Positions 8,694 to 61,584 of a stretch of 64,000 nucleotides of DNA are shown piece by piece. Source of the stretch: Octopus sinensis (lineage: Eukaryota). Each line of letters begins with the position of its first letter. Position 1 is the stretch's first letter. A model generated the notes under the pieces. The model saw only the letters and a list, made by a program, of their open reading frames with translations, did not search any database and was not told where the DNA came from. Position numbers and translations under genes: made by a program. The stretch lies in assembly GCF_006345805.1 (NCBI RefSeq), contig NC_043010.1, positions 60,760,001-60,824,000 of the forward strand. Direction: 5' to 3'.

Positions 8694-9097
<404 letters not shown>

Positions 9098-11574: not shown

Positions 11575-11619
<45 letters not shown>

Positions 11620-11948
11620 TAATAATAATAATAATAATAATGAAATAAGAATAGTATAATAATAAGAATAATTAAGAATAATAATAATAATAATAAAATA
11701 AGAATAATAATAATAATAAATGAGAATAATAATAGTAATAAGAATAAGAATAATAATAATTATAATAATAATAATAATAATGGAAATAATAATAATAATA
11801 ATAATAATATAATAATAATACGAATAATATAATAATAATAAAATAATTAATAATGATAATAAGTAAGAATAATAATATATAAAATAAGAATAATAGATAA
11901 TAATAATAATAATAATAATAATAAGTGATAATAATAATAGTAATAATA

Positions 11949-11998
<50 letters not shown>

Positions 11999-12107
11999 TT
12001 AAATAATAATAATAATATAATAATAATAATAAGTAATTAATAAAATAATAATAAGAATAATAAATAATAAGAATAATAATAATAATAATAGTAATAATAA
12101 ATAATAA

Positions 12108-12154
<47 letters not shown>

Positions 12155-12193
12155 GAATAATGATAAGTAATAATAGTAATAATAGTAATAATC

Positions 12194-12235
<42 letters not shown>

Positions 12236-12375
12236 TAATAATAATAATAATAAATAATAATAATATAATAATAATAATAATAATGAATAAAATAGTAATA
12301 ATAATAATAATAAAATAATAATAATATAATAATAATAATACATAATAATGAAAAAAATAATAATAATGTTAAATA

Positions 12376-12465
<90 letters not shown>

Positions 12466-12528
12466 TAATAATAATAGTAATAATAGTAATAATCATATAA
12501 TAATAATAATAATAATAATAAAATAATA

Positions 12529-12559
<31 letters not shown>

Positions 12560-12654
12560 TATAATAATAATAATAATAATAATAATGATAATAATAATAG
12601 TAATAATAGTAATACTCATAATAATAATAATAAATAATAATCATAATAATAATG

Positions 12655-12723
<69 letters not shown>

Positions 12724-12754
12724 TAATAAAATAGTAATAATAATAATAATAATA

Positions 12755-12790
<36 letters not shown>

Positions 12791-12831
12791 GATAATAATA
12801 ATAGTAATAATAATAAATAATAATAATAATG

Positions 12832-12877
<46 letters not shown>

Positions 12878-13009
12878 TAATAATAATAGTAATAATAGTA
12901 ATAATCATAATAATATAATAATAAATAATAATCATAATAATAATATAATAATAATAATAAATAATAATAATAAAATATAATAATAATAAGATAAAATAAT
13001 AATATAATA

Positions 13010-13044
<35 letters not shown>

Positions 13045-13295
13045 TAATAATAATAATAATAATAAATAATAATAATAATAATAATAATAATAGTAATAAT
13101 CATAATAATAATAATAATAATAATAATAATAGTATAATAATAATAATCATAATAATAATAATAATAATAATAATAATTAATAATATAATAATAATAATAA
13201 TAATGATAATAATAATAGTAATAATAGTAATAATCATAATAATAATAATAAATAATAATAATAATAATATAATAATAATATAATAATAATAATAA

Positions 13296-13347
<52 letters not shown>

Positions 13348-13406
13348 TAGTAATAATAATAGTAATAATCATAATAATAATAATGATAATAATAATAGTA
13401 ATAATA

Positions 13407-13459
<53 letters not shown>

Positions 13460-13701
13460 TAATAATAATAGTAATAATAATAATAATATAATAATAATAA
13501 TAATAATAATAATATAATAATAATAATAATAATAAATAATAATAATAATATAATAATAATAATAATAATAATAAATAATAATAAAATAATAATAATAATA
13601 ATAATGATAATAATAATAGTAATAATAGTAATAATCATAATAATAATAATAAAATAATAATAATAATAAATAATAATAATAATATAATAATAATAATAAT
13701 A

Positions 13702-13733
<32 letters not shown>
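11575..13733 (+). repeat. ~2.1-kb degenerate (AAT)n array
   Basis: Seen directly; recurring variant block GATAATAATAATAGTAATAATAGTAATAATCATAAT. Confidence 0.95.
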
Positions 13734-13735
<2 letters not shown>

Positions 13736-13944
13736 GGGCTACTCGACTTGAAGAAAATTCTAACTGGTTCCCACCTGCAAGGTCATGCACTGTTTACCTT
13801 GATATGAGATGACTATGTTCTGCACATGTTGTTGTGATGCATGTGCCTGGTGTACCCTTATCGGATGGGTAGTCATGATGGGTATACTGGACTTCAAATA
13901 TTTTACCCTGGTGCACTTTGATGGCATGCGCTGCTCTCTCACTC
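13734..13944. mobile_element. Truncated copy of the 550-bp (AAT)n-embedded repeat
   Basis: Matches the right ~210 bp of 15644-16196 and 16721-17274. Confidence 0.8.
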
Positions 13945-14120
13945 AATAATAATAATAATAATAATAATAATCCTTTCTACTAAAGGCACAAAGCCTAAAA
14001 TTTAGTGGGAGGGGACTAGTTGATTATATTGACCTCAGTATTCCACTGGTACTTAATTTATCAACACCAAAAGGGTGAAAGGCAAAGTCAACCTTGGAAG
14101 AATTTGAACTCGCTGCTTAA

Positions 14121-14247
<127 letters not shown>

Positions 14248-15396
14248 GTGCCTCCAAAACTGGCATCCAACCCTTCCAATACTATGTCCACTCCACCAAG
14301 CATCCACAAGCAACCCACCACAACTGCTACCCCCACCCTCACTCAACTACAGCTGCCACCAGCACCAGCACCCATACCATTTCACAACCATTGCCTCCAC
14401 CAATACCCATTCCACACCCTGTCTACATTTTCCCCACCCAATATGTTTTTCACTCAATGTGCTTGTTTGCCATGCTAGAAATAACAGCCGAATCTCTCTC
14501 ATCGGATAATGTAACATATGACTACATCATTCCTGAAAGACAGGATGGTCATGCTTGGAATACCTTTGATCAACACAACAACAGCACCTTACTCTATTTT
14601 ACTGCCCCTCCCAGCACAAGACTCCCCGCCCCACAGCATCACTTATACTACCACTATAACCACCATGAATACCACCACCACCCACACACCACTAGCAATA
14701 CAACCTTCTCCACCCCACCACTATCACCAAAACTACCCTCATTACTTACCCTACCCCACTACTGCTTCTACTGCACTACCACCACCACCACCACCACTGC
14801 CACTACCCTCACACCACCACTGTCACACCCACTACTTACCCCTCCACACCATCGTAACCACTCCACCCACTGTAACTACCCCACACACATCACCACCAGC
14901 TACCCCCTCCCCGACCACCTCCGATCCCTTCCACTTTGAAGTGGGAGATCAGGAAGAAGGGATCCTTTAGCTAACCCCAGACAAATGTTCTTTTAAAAAA
15001 CGATAACGATCAATCAATGACGTCCCCCACCCACCGCCCGTCCTCCTCCTCTGACACTTCCATCCCCTGTGCCTCGTGGGGTGGGGCTGGGGTTTGGGGC
15101 AGGGGCTGAGACAGCTCTGTTATCTCCCCCCCACCACCACTACCACCTCCGCTCACAGACTACATAATACTGCTCCACACTCCATCAGATTTGCATTGAT
15201 TACTTGGTTTGGGGAGGGAGAACAACAACAACAACAACATCAGCAGCAAAAAAGGAAACACATTAACAACAGCTGTAGCAACAGCAACAACAACAACAAC
15301 AGAACAGAAATCATTAGCAACCGTAGCAACAAGGCAAACAGCAACAAGAAGAATATTAGTAACTATAACAACAACAACAATAATAATAATAATAAT

Positions 15397-15594
15397 CCTT
15401 TGTACTCTAGACACAAGGTCCGAAATTGTTGGGGAGAGGGACTAGTCAATTACATCAGCCCCAGTGTGTAACTGGTACTTAATTTATTGACCCTGAAAGG
15501 ATGAAAGGCAAAGTCGACCTTGGTAGAATTTGAACTCAGGACATAGCTAAGCATTTCATCCAGCATGTTAACAATTCTGCCAGCTCACCACCTT
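15397..15594 (-). mobile_element. tRNA-derived SINE (family B)
   Basis: Reverse complement of AAGGTGGTGAGCTGGCAGAA...GAGTTCAAATTC...GACTTTGCCTTTCATCCTTTC...AAGTACCAG. Confidence 0.8.
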
Positions 15595-15604
15595 AGTAGT
15601 AGTA

Positions 15605-15642
<38 letters not shown>

Positions 15643-15643
15643 T

Positions 15644-16196
15644 GCCCTGATGCAGTACAGGCAGAGGCTCTCATGGCTTCTGATCTTAACTGATTGGAAG
15701 TGTTATCATGTTACATTGCTGTTCTGTCTTGGTATAAAAGATGGCCTACAGCAAATATTCTGCTCAATACCACAGATTTGCTTGTCAGTTGTTTGACCTT
15801 AACCAGTTGAGCATGTCCCTTAGTGGCTGACGATATGTGCATCTCTGATCACGAGCAGAAGTAGTGGGGGAGCATCATGCCATGTGTTGAGAGGGATTCT
15901 TGGGGTTTGAATAATTCACCTCTGGAGACATGGTGGGGGTTTTTCAACATCCTTAAACAACCCTTATTCAGGGACCTTTTGAGCGGGATGGGCTACTCAA
16001 CCTGAAGAAAATTCTGACTGGGCCCCACCTGCAAGGTCATGTGCATTTATCTTGATATGAGATCACCATGCCGCGCACATATGGTTGTGATGCAGTGCCT
16101 GGTGTGCCCTATCAGACGGGTAGTCATGATGGGTATATTGGGCTTCGTATATTTTACCCCAGTGTCACTTTGATGGCATGAACTGCTCTCTCACTC
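15644..16196. mobile_element. Unclassified ~550-bp repeat flanked by (AAT)n
   Basis: GCCCTGATGCAGTAC...CTGCTCTCTCACTC; second full copy at 16721-17274 with the same ends. Confidence 0.85.
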
Positions 16197-16230
16197 AATG
16201 ATAATAATAATAATAGTAATAATAGTAATA

Positions 16231-16289
<59 letters not shown>

Positions 16290-16380
16290 TATAATAATTA
16301 TAATAATAATAATAATAATAATTATAATAATTATAATAATAATAATAATGATAATAATAATAGTAATAATAGTAATAATC

Positions 16381-16439
<59 letters not shown>

Positions 16440-16470
16440 AATAATAGTAATAATAGTAATAATAGTAATA

Positions 16471-16519
<49 letters not shown>

Positions 16520-16542
16520 TGATAATAATAATAATAGTAATA
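16197..16542 (+). repeat. (AAT)n array with AGT/GAT variants
   Basis: Seen directly. Confidence 0.95.
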
Positions 16543-16720
16543 AGGCATAAGAGCATCACAGCAAACCACAGTACATACCCAAGGCACACAGAGCTGTGCT
16601 TGGCAGTGAAGTGAAACTACATTATAAAAACAAAACTACTGAATAATAATAATAATGATGATAAAAGCAAAAACAACAATAATGATAATAGTTATAATAA
16701 TAATAATAATAATAATAAAT

Positions 16721-59429: not shown

Positions 59430-59845
59430 ATGGCCGATGACAGTTCCGCCTGATTGGTACTTGTGCCAGTGGAACATTACAAGCACATCCGAGCATGGTC
59501 GTTGCCAGGGCCACAGATTGGCTCCTGTGCTGGTGACACGTGAAAAGCACCATTCAAGCATGATCGTTGCCAGGGCCACAGATTGGCTCCCGTGCTGGTG
59601 ACACGTGAAAAGCACCATTCAAGCATGATCGTTGCCAGCGTCACTTTACCAGTACATGTGTCAGTGGCACATGAAAAATGACATTCCGGTGTGGTCACTG
59701 CCAGTGCCACCAGACTGGCTCCCACGTAGGTAGCTCGTAAAAAAGCACCTTTTGAGCCTGGTTGTTGGCCCTCATGCTGGTGGCATGTAAAAAGCACCCA
59801 CTAGACCCTCGGAGTGGTTGGCATTAGGAAGGGCATCCAGCTGTA
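59430..59845 (+). mobile_element. RTE 3' UTR tandem units (family C), including a near-exact 63-bp duplication
   Basis: CGTTGCCAGGGCCACAGATTGGCTCC.GTGCTGGTGACACGTGAAAAGCACCATTCAAGCATGAT occurs twice. Confidence 0.8.
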
Positions 59846-60618
59846 GTGGTATTTTGTCAGTCTTTACGTTCTGAGTTCAATTTCCACCGAGGTCAACTTT
59901 ACCTTTTATCCTTTCAGGGTCGATAAATTAAGTACCAGTTGTATACTGGGGTTGATCTAACTGACTGCCCCCCCCTTCACCCCAAAAATTTTGGTCCTTG
60001 TGCCTAGAGTAGAAAAGAATATCTTGTTCCTCTATTGGGGTAGTCCTTGTTCACCTTAGACATTCTCCACAATAAGCTAACTTCTATTATAACATTTCAA
60101 ATGCTCTTTCTTCTCAGCCTCAGTGAGGGTCAGTGTGCCAGCATCACTTTTCTCCGACAAACTCTTGATGCACCCTTACTCACTGCTTTACAATCCTCAT
60201 TTTGCATCTCTGATACTTTTGATGCAAAAAACCTTTTGCTTTCAAATTTCCTCCATGTTATGGAAACCAGAAACTTAGCTTCTTTTTTTTTGCCACTTAA
60301 TATCGTTCTTTGCTGACCCCTTCCTTGGTGAGGAGGGGGATTATTGGACACCCCTTAGGATAGAAAATAAGACCCCTCAAAGGGTGGAGAAACTCATAAG
60401 TAGTCAACAGCCACCCACTCCATGGTGCATGCTCCTGTGATCCAGAGAGCTATGCTAGTGGGAGCAAGTCACCTGGCAGGTACAATAAGCCAGACAGGTC
60501 AAAGGGTAGCAGCTAGACAAAATCTTAATCCAGTTCTGTATTTAAGAGATGAGGAATTATGTACATTATTTACATTATTTACATTTGATGGATATTTGTC
60601 CTCATCTTGTTTGTTGTT

Positions 60619-60664
60619 AACACAACGTTTCGGCTGATATACCCTCCAGCCTTCATCAGGTGTC
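60619..60664 (-). ncRNA. Minimal type I hammerhead ribozyme motif (intact core)
   Basis: GACAC-CUGAUGA-A-GGCUG(gaggguauau)CAGCC-GAAA-CG-UU-GUGUU: 5-bp stem I, 5-bp stem II, palindromic ACGU stem III, GUU site. Confidence 0.8.
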
Positions 60665-60876
60665 TTGGGGAAATTTCAAACCTGGGTTCTCATTCCTAAG
60701 GCATTTTTCAATGTTATTATTATTATTGTTATTATTTAGGTCACTACCTGGAATTGAACTCGGAATCTTGGGGTTAATAGCCCGCACTCTTAACCACTAC
60801 GCCACGGGCATATGGCATAGTGATTAAGAGCGCGGGATACTAACCCCAAGATTCCGAGTTCAATTCCAGACAGTGA

Positions 60877-60908
<32 letters not shown>

Positions 60909-60961
60909 GTAACATTGAAAAATACCTTAGGAATGAGAACCCAGGTTTGAAATTTCCCCAA

Positions 60962-61007
60962 GATATCTGATGAAGGCCGGAGGGTATATCAGCCAAAACA
61001 TTGTGTT
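60962..61007 (+). ncRNA. Decayed hammerhead motif in the right arm
   Basis: CTGATGAAGGCCGGAGGGTATATCAGCC-AAAA-CATT-GTGTT; GAAA to AAAA and CG to CA changes, consistent with CpG decay, predict inactivity. Confidence 0.6.
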
Positions 61008-61390
61008 AACAACAAACAAAATGAGAACAAATATCCGTCAAATGTAAATAATGTAAATAATGTAAATAATGTAAAATCTTAATCATCCAGAGGACTAAAC
61101 CTGAAATGATCAAAATCAAAGCAGCGGGGTGTGACCGTTACACTGGCCTGCATCAACAGATTGCTTTTGTGGTTTTGCAACATGATGGCTTTAGTGGGCA
61201 TCAACCAGTCTCAAGAGTAGACTGCTGTGGTCACATTTATATTGCCACACTATCAGACTACTTAAAACCTCCTTCTGGTCTTTCCAGACCTTTCTTTCAC
61301 CTTTTATGATTCTACCTATGCTACTCTTGATCCAGTCACAGATCCTGTGATCCACATCTGGGTCTTTCAGAAATTTCAAGATGTCCTCTA

Positions 61391-61584
61391 CATTAGCACA
61401 CCGGGCAAAATGCTTAGCGGTATTTCGTCTGCCGTTACGTCTTGAGGTCAACTTTGCCTTTCATCCTTTCGGGGTTGATAAATAAAAGTACCAGTTTCAC
61501 ACTGGGGTCGATGTAATCGACTTGATCACTTTGTCTGTCCTTGTTTGTCTCCTGTGTTTAGCCCCTTGTGGGAAGTAAAGAAAT
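61391..61584 (+). mobile_element. tRNA-derived SINE (family B)
   Basis: Matches 22665-22893 with a deletion over the B box. Confidence 0.8.

What the first reader, a model, noticed from the sequence alone, without database searches (positions are those of the whole stretch)
60519..61084. tRNA-headed, hammerhead-carrying element inserted as a palindromic dimer with one 12-bp TSD: candidate Penelope-mobilised SINE
Seen: each arm is a tRNA-like head (A box TGGC(G/A)TAGTG(G/A)TT, arm GGGCTA(C/T)TAACCC, B box GAGTTCAATTCC), an (AAT)n spacer and a 3' module with GACAC-CUGAUGA-A-GGCUG..CAGCC-GAAACGUU-GUGUU. The arms are joined head to head near 60805. Only the left arm keeps the ~30-nt terminal tail, and AAAATCTTAATC flanks both ends. 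Established: minimal hammerheads with palindromic stem III that cleave as dimers, inverted partial copies and a 3' tail extension are features of Penelope-like element pseudo-LTRs, whereas tRNA SINEs normally borrow LINE 3' ends. Inference: a non-coding Pol III element using Penelope RT/GIY-YIG machinery in trans, with the dimer formed in a single insertion. I cannot check whether this family is already described.
Basis: partly seen in the sequence, partly recalled or inferred. Interest (0 to 1): 0.9.

Follow-up and report, generated by a model that had tools for sequence, protein, structure and literature searches.

The report
Penelope retrotransposon end with tRNA-like head
This mirror-image repeat is not a separate SINE but the short end-piece of a protein-coding Penelope-type retrotransposon that carries a tRNA-like, probably RNA polymerase III, start signal inside its own terminal repeat and so sheds thousands of SINE-like copies of itself.

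Summary
The palindrome, one-sided tail and 12-bp TSD are real, but only the left arm has an intact hammerhead. The unit is the pseudo-LTR (pLTR) of an autonomous Penelope/Poseidon-type element in the same genome: 16 of 18 RT-anchored copies that reach the ORF end carry the same tRNA-like head 36 nt after the stop codon, and the hammerhead module plus tail encode the ORF's first 51 codons. Inverted arms, two fixed 3' ends and ~12-bp TSDs are family-wide and match published Poseidon biochemistry. The unusual part is the head. Of 58 head-bearing insertions, 49 start between -13 and +22 of the A box and none between -14 and -28. Genome-wide motif counts fall 4,245 to 937 across that wall. The 2.66-kb unit has no TTTT. 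Short and ORF-linked copies share variants and age, so there is no separate SINE lineage. Best reading: a Pol III-type promoter built into a Penelope pLTR yields short RNAs mobilised by the element's own enzyme. Pol III transcription and cleavage are untested.

The parts
60519..60530 (+). target-site duplication, left copy (12 bp)
   Evidence: family TSD mode 12 bp
60531..60556 (-). PLE tail (family positions ~+247 to +271), present on the left arm only; in full-length tandem copies it runs straight on into the ORF
60531..60693 (-). first ~51-54 codons of the PLE ORF (ATG at 60693-60691), containing hammerhead, 3' stem-loop and tail
   Evidence: frame; 401- and 391-codon open frames through this region in L135 and L145; homologous N-terminus in P0001
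60619..60664 (-). intact minimal type I hammerhead: stem I GACAC/GUGUU, CUGAUGA, bulged A, 6-bp stem II, GAAA-C-G-U-U; predicted cut between 60624 and 60623
   Evidence: sequence, fold, fits the min-HHR consensus of PMC4209133; cleavage not tested
60714..60738 (-). (AAT)n spacer, left arm
60739..60804 (-). tRNA-like head, left arm, 5'-truncated at the A box (A box 60804-60794, B box 60761-60750)
60802..60804 (.). head-to-head junction, 3-base microhomology
60802..60878 (+). tRNA-like head, right arm, starting at family position -10 (tRNA base 1 = 60806, A box from 60813, B box 60856-60867)
60881..60913 (+). (AAT)n spacer, right arm
60962..61007 (+). decayed hammerhead, right arm (G12>A at 60995, G16.2>A at 61000, stem I and II changes)
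61008..61072 (+). 3' part of right arm, ending at the internal start site (~+246), no tail
61073..61084 (+). target-site duplication, right copy
8696..9097 (+). third copy of the same family in the window: head from +5, expanded AAT/GAT spacer, intact hammerhead core, tail

Best explanation
The locus is one insertion of the pLTR of an old, autonomous Penelope/Poseidon-type retrotransposon. The element's unit (2.66 kb) is: tRNA-like head - (AAT)n - ATG - minimal hammerhead - tail - RT - GIY-YIG - stop - 36 nt - next head. Shown: this anatomy, the family-wide inverted arms, two 3' ends (~+246 and +271), ~12-bp TSDs, and a hard 5' wall 10-13 nt upstream of the A box. Taken from published Poseidon biochemistry (PMC11167929): the enzyme cuts and extends both target strands and starts reverse transcription at two internal RNA sites that bracket the tail. 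Inferred: the head is a working internal Pol III promoter starting at about -12; because every element carries a second head after its stop codon, it makes a ~285-nt head-to-tail RNA that holds the enzyme's binding and start sites; the element's protein primes two cDNAs from the two staggered nicks, both run to the RNA 5' end, and they are joined head to head by microhomology or by fold-back at the small hairpin at -13..-2. The short copies are therefore SINE-like by-products of the autonomous element (about three of four head-bearing copies), not a separate family. The hammerhead is inherited from the PLE and does not set the ends of the insertions.
For: Partner found: upstream of some heads lies RT (GSP, YVDD, DKG) and GIY-YIG coding DNA. 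16 of 18 RT-anchored copies that reach the ORF end carry the head next; one has an internal deletion and one stops at -2; L135, L137, L138 show the same head-module-tail before the ORF. ORF 835 codons in the script consensus, 57% identical to P0001. Tail-anchored sample taken in genome order: 49 of 58 head-bearing insertions have their 5'-most end at -13..+22, 19 at -13..-10, none at -14..-28, 9 run on into the ORF; stop rate about 0.016/nt there against 0.001-0.004/nt elsewhere. Exact genome counts: 4,245 (-3..+18), 937 (-32..-13), 691 (-136..-117), reversed-pattern controls 0, with similar match rates in ORF-linked copies (4, 5, 4 of 16). Head aligns end to end with host tRNAs, 47-49 identities over 72-76 nt, z 6.4-6.9. 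No TTTT in the 2,661-nt sense strand (expected 4.7, 2.6, 2.9; P 0.007, 0.05, 0.03 under three shuffles), 0-1 in 11 genomic copies, 2-9 in 7 other PLE ORFs. Inverted arms end at +236..+247 in 37 of 57. Paired arms agree at subfamily site +156 in 29 of 30 (p=0.001).
Against: No transcript evidence: the two raw RNA runs laid were unstranded in effect and showed no pile of starts. The TTTT deficit is modest (P=0.05 with dinucleotides kept), the strand is T-poor, the 7 control ORFs are not independent families, and a 46-48% identical relative also has none in 1.6 kb (P0=0.12). A hairpin at the wall could itself stop or fold back reverse transcription, and in fold-back junctions bases -13..-9 can come from the other arm. 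A and B boxes are no better kept than the rest of the head in copies (p=0.26) and hammerhead CpGs decay like any other: copies are neutral, so function cannot be read from them. All 38 RT-anchored copies are broken (longest PLE frame 401 codons).
Confidence: 0.68

Rival explanations
1. The head is a passenger (an old tRNA-SINE or tRNA pseudogene fixed in the pLTR). The element is transcribed by Pol II, and short copies are ordinary 5'-truncated PLE ends that pile up because the hairpin at -19..+3 stalls or folds back the cDNA.
For: The hairpin exists; several junctions read as fold-backs centred on it (L175, L196, L224, L239, L244). 5' truncation and inversion are normal for PLEs (PMC8557442). 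No Pol III data.
Against: A stall should fall at the 3' foot of the stem (about +3), yet 19 of 49 ends lie at -13..-10, including junctions without fold-back (L173, L202, L205, L231, L238, L252), and none lies at -14..-28. It does not explain the absence of TTTT.
Confidence: 0.2
2. One reading: an independent tRNA-SINE captured the PLE pLTR and multiplies on its own, using PLE proteins in trans; ORF-linked heads are later recombinants.
For: Short copies outnumber ORF-linked ones about 4:1; each short copy keeps A/B boxes and meets a TTTT a median 67 nt past the tail, so it could be a source gene; it meets the SINEBase size, number and tRNA-identity tests.
Against: No head-less PLE of this family was seen (16 of 18); 44 ORF-linked and 56 short arms share the same polymorphisms (+57, +156) and the same 4.6% non-CpG divergence, with no diagnostic site apart from one at the edge of the aligned stretch.
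Confidence: 0.1
3. The tRNA-like piece is a processing signal (RNase P-type cut at tRNA base 1) that trims a Pol II read-through RNA.
For: Five ends at -7 and several at -5..-2; the head spans a whole tRNA length.
Against: The cut would be at -6, but many ends reach -10..-13; the acceptor stem does not form in the predicted fold.
Confidence: 0.04

Closest known systems
Penelope/Poseidon-clade PLEs, e.g. PAc of Anolis (PMC11167929, main text read; PMC8557442, passages; PMC4209133, results and discussion read)
   Same: One ORF with RT then GIY-YIG; partial tandems forming pLTRs; minimal hammerhead overlapping the ORF start; two reverse-transcription start sites bracketing a tail; inverted 5'-truncated copy without tail.
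   Different: None of these texts reports a tRNA-derived or Pol III promoter in the pLTR, a fixed 5' wall at such a head, or mass production of head-to-tail short copies. Tail here is ~25 nt against 30-40 nt reported.
Schistosome Sm-alpha / Sj-alpha SINE-like elements (seen through passages of PMC2770079 and PMC6765202; the primary papers were not held)
   Same: tRNA-derived Pol III promoter followed by a type I hammerhead in a high-copy repeat.
   Different: Those are non-coding, often tandem, with a canonical active hammerhead and no identified autonomous partner in what I read; here the hammerhead is minimal, coding, and physically part of an autonomous PLE.
Animal non-LTR retrozymes (PMC7229834, passages; bioRxiv 10.64898/2026.07.22.740005, first fifth and passages)
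   Same: Short non-autonomous pieces related to PLE pLTRs, with type I hammerheads, thought to be moved by PLE enzymes.
   Different: Retrozymes are head-to-tail tandem arrays making circular RNA; these copies are dispersed monomers or inverted pairs with TSDs, and carry a tRNA head (0 mentions of tRNA or Pol III in the preprint).
TRIMp3 elements: Cassandra, Helenus, Ajax (PMC10886601, abstract and passages)
   Same: A small-RNA-derived Pol III promoter sits inside the terminal repeat of a retrotransposon.
   Different: Those are non-autonomous LTR elements with PBS/PPT and 4-5 bp TSDs; this is a PLE, and the promoter-like head sits in the autonomous, protein-coding element.
tRNA-SINEs (SINEBase definition, PMC3531059, passages); octopus OK/OR1/OR2 SINEs of Ohshima and Okada 1994 (title only)
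   Same: Short, dispersed, >100 copies, tRNA-related head with A and B boxes.
   Different: No simple-repeat 3' tail, no LINE partner, ends and inversions of PLE type. Whether the head equals one of the 1994 families could not be checked.

Membership tests
Penelope-like element, EN+ (full-length family) | single ORF with PLE-type RT (DKG, GSP, YVDD) and C-terminal GIY-YIG endonuclease with CCHH residues | tested here: met
   homologues carry PF00078, PF28514, PF26215
Penelope-like element, EN+ (full-length family) | partial tandem giving direct pseudo-LTRs | tested here: met
   L134, L135, L137, L138, L160 and others
Penelope-like element, EN+ (full-length family) | inverted 5'-truncated copy and one-sided tail | tested here: met
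   57 of 90 loci with inverted arm; 37 of 57 end at +236..+247, tail ends at +271
Penelope-like element, EN+ (full-length family) | minimal hammerhead in the pLTR | tested here: met
   motif fits the published consensus; 56 of 83 arms keep the core; N7 is the polymorphic base
Penelope-like element, EN+ (full-length family) | hammerhead cleaves (as dimer or protein-assisted) | not testable with these tools
   needs an RNA assay
Penelope/Poseidon clade rather than Neptune/Nematis | no CX2-5CxxC zinc finger between RT and endonuclease | tested here: met
   absent here, present in control PLEs L037 and L038
Penelope/Poseidon clade rather than Neptune/Nematis | RT phylogeny with named reference elements | not tested
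   no named Poseidon sequence was available from the tools; PDB search gave only weak RT hits
tRNA-SINE (SINEBase) | <1 kb, interspersed, >=100 copies | tested here: met
   4,289 exact tail matches and 4,245 exact head matches
tRNA-SINE (SINEBase) | >=60% identity to a tRNA over >=60 nt | tested here: met
   47-49 identities over 72-76 nt to Arg-TCT, Ala-TGC, Cys-GCA among 32 distinct host tRNAs compared, 7 isotypes only
tRNA-SINE (SINEBase) | transcribed by Pol III from the internal promoter | tested here: inconclusive
   5' wall and TTTT absence favour it; RNA reads uninformative
tRNA-SINE (SINEBase) | non-autonomous family distinct from its partner, moved by a LINE RT, simple-repeat 3' tail | tested here: not met
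   sequence is the pLTR and ORF start of the autonomous PLE; no separate lineage; fixed non-repetitive 3' ends
non-LTR retrozyme | head-to-tail tandem repeats with a hammerhead in each unit | tested here: not met
   sampled copies are monomers or inverted pairs; 1 of 90 shows a short head-to-tail run-on (L166)

The most novel reading that the evidence does not exclude
The whole 2.66-kb autonomous element, not only the short copies, is a Pol III transcription unit: it starts at the tRNA-like head of the upstream pLTR, has purged TTTT terminators from its coding strand, and is translated without a cap, possibly helped by the hammerhead at the ORF start (self-cleaving hammerheads promote cap-independent translation in PMC13725137, passages). 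That would be a protein-coding retrotransposon run by Pol III that carries its own SINE, a direct model for how SINE-partner pairs arise.
Probability: 0.25. Interest if true: 0.88.

Novelty: new variant of a known kind. Interest (0 to 1): 0.63.

Why it matters
It puts a tRNA-type Pol III promoter inside an autonomous Penelope element and shows SINE-like copies arising from within their own partner, on the order of 10^4 insertions (about 15,000 tailed copies estimated). It gives a concrete link between hammerhead-bearing tRNA-SINEs (schistosome alpha elements), retrozymes and PLEs. The short RNA, with head, ribozyme and both start sites in ~285 nt, is a natural minimal template for studying how PLEs make inverted insertions. 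It also warns that repeat pipelines may file such PLE ends as tRNA-SINEs.

Tried and rejected
Rfam and ARAGORN: no tRNA or hammerhead call at the locus. Top 30 of 150 GIY-YIG hits in the genome: Neptune-type and other PLEs, none ends in this module; the partner was found by walking upstream from heads. My first guess that L023's upstream DNA was the partner ORF was wrong beyond ~85 nt. Hammerhead cut as the source of insertion ends: 1 of 90 plus-arm 5' ends near +187, 3' ends at +246/+271; rejected. Core conservation among copies as proof of function: 3.2% against 4.6% mismatch (p=0.025) but the core is A-rich and its CpGs decay; not used. One template versus two: paired arms are barely more alike than random pairs (91.1% against 90.7%) though they share subfamily sites; undecided. 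Expression: no RNA holder listed; laid reads gave equal depth on both strands and no starts. Relatives' DNA: no locus for P0001; 15 distant metagenome loci, the two closest lacking their 3' end, so the head could not be looked for. Earlier scan notes: nothing. Empty-site orthologue, Dfam and Repbase could not be checked. Literature searches listed no paper on a PLE with a tRNA-derived pLTR; two primary papers were not held, one supplement file of PMC4209133 and all preprint supplements were unseen, and the O. vulgaris repeat library was not in the supplement searched.

Full report
Numbering: +1 is the first T of the A box (TGGCGTAGTGG), the base before it is 0; the tail ends at +271.

OBSERVATION. 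The locus is an inverted pair: left arm 60531-60804 (-), right arm 60802-61072 (+), 89% identical, flanked by AAAATCTTAATC at both ends. Only the left arm has the tail and only the left arm has an intact hammerhead; the right arm lost G12 and G16.2. Rfam and ARAGORN call nothing here. A third copy lies at 8696-9097. The host genome (G000, 2.7 Gb) looks like an octopus-type cephalopod; this is my recalled impression of its repeats and comes from no call.

FAMILY. A DNA search gave 3,213 candidates, 40 scored, at 87-94% identity. An exact 26-nt tail pattern has 4,289 matches (reversed control 0), about 15,000 tailed insertions after correcting for divergence. Of 20 loci picked by the head alone, in genome order and skipping three already held, 18 continue into the hammerhead module (one through its inverted arm), one has the hammerhead deleted and one is head only.

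THE PARTNER. The top 30 GIY-YIG hits are other PLEs without this module. But several heads are preceded by shared DNA that extends into RT and GIY-YIG coding sequence. Of 38 loci anchored on the RT region, 18 reach the ORF end; 16 of these carry the head right after it, one has an internal deletion and one stops at -2; L135, L137 and L138 carry head-module-tail in front of the ORF as well. The unit is 2,661 nt; the stop codon lies 36 nt before the A box; the ORF (835 codons) starts at an ATG at about +118, so hammerhead and tail are coding. Two genomic copies keep this frame open for 401 and 391 codons; all 38 are broken somewhere, and non-CpG divergence is 4.6%, so the family looks extinct. 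The closest database protein, P0001 (57% identical), has a homologous hammerhead-coded N-terminus. The Neptune-type linker finger is absent, which fits Penelope/Poseidon; no tree with named references was made. Contigs of a different coded organism span the head-ORF junction (X12).

INSERTION ANATOMY. In 90 loci anchored on the tail (the first 90 of 4,289 matches, all on contig C1), 57 have an inverted arm; 37 of 57 end at +236..+247, most of the rest being cut by long AAT tracts or locus edges. 35 of 51 with a mapped outer end have a TSD >=10 bp, mode 12; 1 of the other 39; 1 of 300 control pairs. Tail-less single copies ending at +239..+246 also occur. PMC8557442 (passages) describes the inverted copy and one-sided tail as PLE traits. 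PMC11167929 (main text) shows for an anole Poseidon that both strands are cut and extended, that reverse transcription starts at two internal sites bracketing the tail inside the ORF start, that the hammerhead overlaps the ORF start, needs the protein, and is not needed for insertion. The window locus is therefore an ordinary product of this machinery. Paired arms agree at subfamily site +156 in 29 of 30 and at +57 in 12 of 16 but are otherwise hardly more alike than random pairs, so one RNA copied twice and two RNAs of one source both remain open.

THE HEAD. It aligns end to end with host tRNAs (best Arg-TCT, Ala-TGC, Cys-GCA; 47-49 identities, z 6.4-6.9; 32 distinct tRNAs from 35 of 46 listed hits, seven isotypes, so the parent tRNA is not fixed). 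After dropping 4 duplicate loci, 58 of 86 insertions have a head; 49 have their 5'-most end at -13..+22 (19 at -13..-10), none at -14..-28, and 9 run into the ORF. Exact counts across the genome step from 4,245 just inside to 937 just outside and 691 a further 104 nt up. A start 12-13 nt before the A box is what Pol III type 2 promoters give (recalled knowledge). The coding strand of the whole unit has no TTTT, against 2-9 in seven other PLE ORFs of the genome (P 0.007-0.05 by null). Against: a hairpin sits at the wall; a distant relative also lacks TTTT over 1.6 kb; boxes are not better kept in copies; RNA reads were uninformative.

NO SEPARATE SINE. 44 ORF-linked and 56 short arms share both polymorphic sites and have equal divergence (0.046, 0.046); the one strong difference (+225) is at the edge of the stretch aligned for short arms and I treat it as an artefact.

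MECHANISM (committed, 0.68). Shown: anatomy, ends, TSDs, 5' wall. From the literature: two-strand cutting and two start sites. Inferred: Pol III starts at about -12 in every pLTR; the downstream pLTR yields a ~285-nt RNA with the protein's binding and start sites; the element's enzyme inserts it, often as two cDNAs joined head to head.

KNOWN VERSUS NEW. tRNA head plus hammerhead is known from schistosome alpha elements (passages of PMC2770079, PMC6765202); non-autonomous PLE derivatives are known as retrozymes (PMC7229834 passages; bioRxiv 10.64898/2026.07.22.740005, first fifth and passages); Pol III promoters in terminal repeats are known from non-autonomous TRIMs (PMC10886601, abstract and passages). 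Minimal hammerheads in pLTRs are known (PMC4209133, results and discussion). Nine searches listed no report of an autonomous PLE with a tRNA-derived pLTR; PMC13282606, PMC8967140, PMC6962438, PMC5753468 and PMC3531059 (passages only) do not describe it. Repbase, Dfam, the 1994 octopus SINE paper and unseen supplements could hold the family under another label. Verdict: new variant of a known kind, interest 0.63; the fully Pol III-run coding element is possible (0.25) and would deserve 0.88.

Noticed in passing
window 8696-9097: Third copy of the family, with the spacer grown into a ~150-nt AAT/GAT microsatellite and an intact hammerhead core.
   Followed up: partly
L199, L222, L231, L319, L322: The (AAT)n spacer seeds microsatellites that reach several hundred to about a thousand bases and split copies in two.
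   Followed up: no
G000, rows (e.g. C1:207477583, C3:65736423, C6:12733272, C19:35627265); L037, L038: Several GIY-YIG hits lie in identical-length 781-codon open frames, apparently a young intact PLE family; L037/L038 are Neptune-type, and my simple pattern found no hammerhead core within 1.1 kb of their endonuclease start.
   Followed up: no
P0001 residues 18-33: The peptide coded by the hammerhead is conserved in a 57%-identical relative, with amino-acid changes that imply a compensatory pair in stem II; its DNA could not be fetched.
   Followed up: partly
window 59889-59966 and 61444-61522: Two copies of another abundant SINE-like repeat flank the locus; the same repeat dominates reads on the flank of L129.
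   Followed up: no
window 59500-59798: Tandem 65-bp units, two nearly identical and two decayed.
   Followed up: no
window about 11600-16700: Very long degenerate AAT-rich tract, GC 8% at 12001-14000.
   Followed up: no
L205, L206, L208, L209: Four identical insertions with identical flanks within 1 Mb of contig C1: a local segmental repeat.
   Followed up: no
L184/L185: Two insertions of the family lie tail to tail about 85 bases apart.
   Followed up: no
L091:3780-6320: A 932-bp, 99%-identical inverted duplication of the 5' part of a PLE copy, far more alike than usual paired arms.
   Followed up: no
L290, L293, L296-L298, L304: Distant PLE relatives in metagenome records carry other minimal hammerheads, some as inverted pairs; one A/B-box match in L296 lies well upstream of the ORF match.
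   Followed up: no
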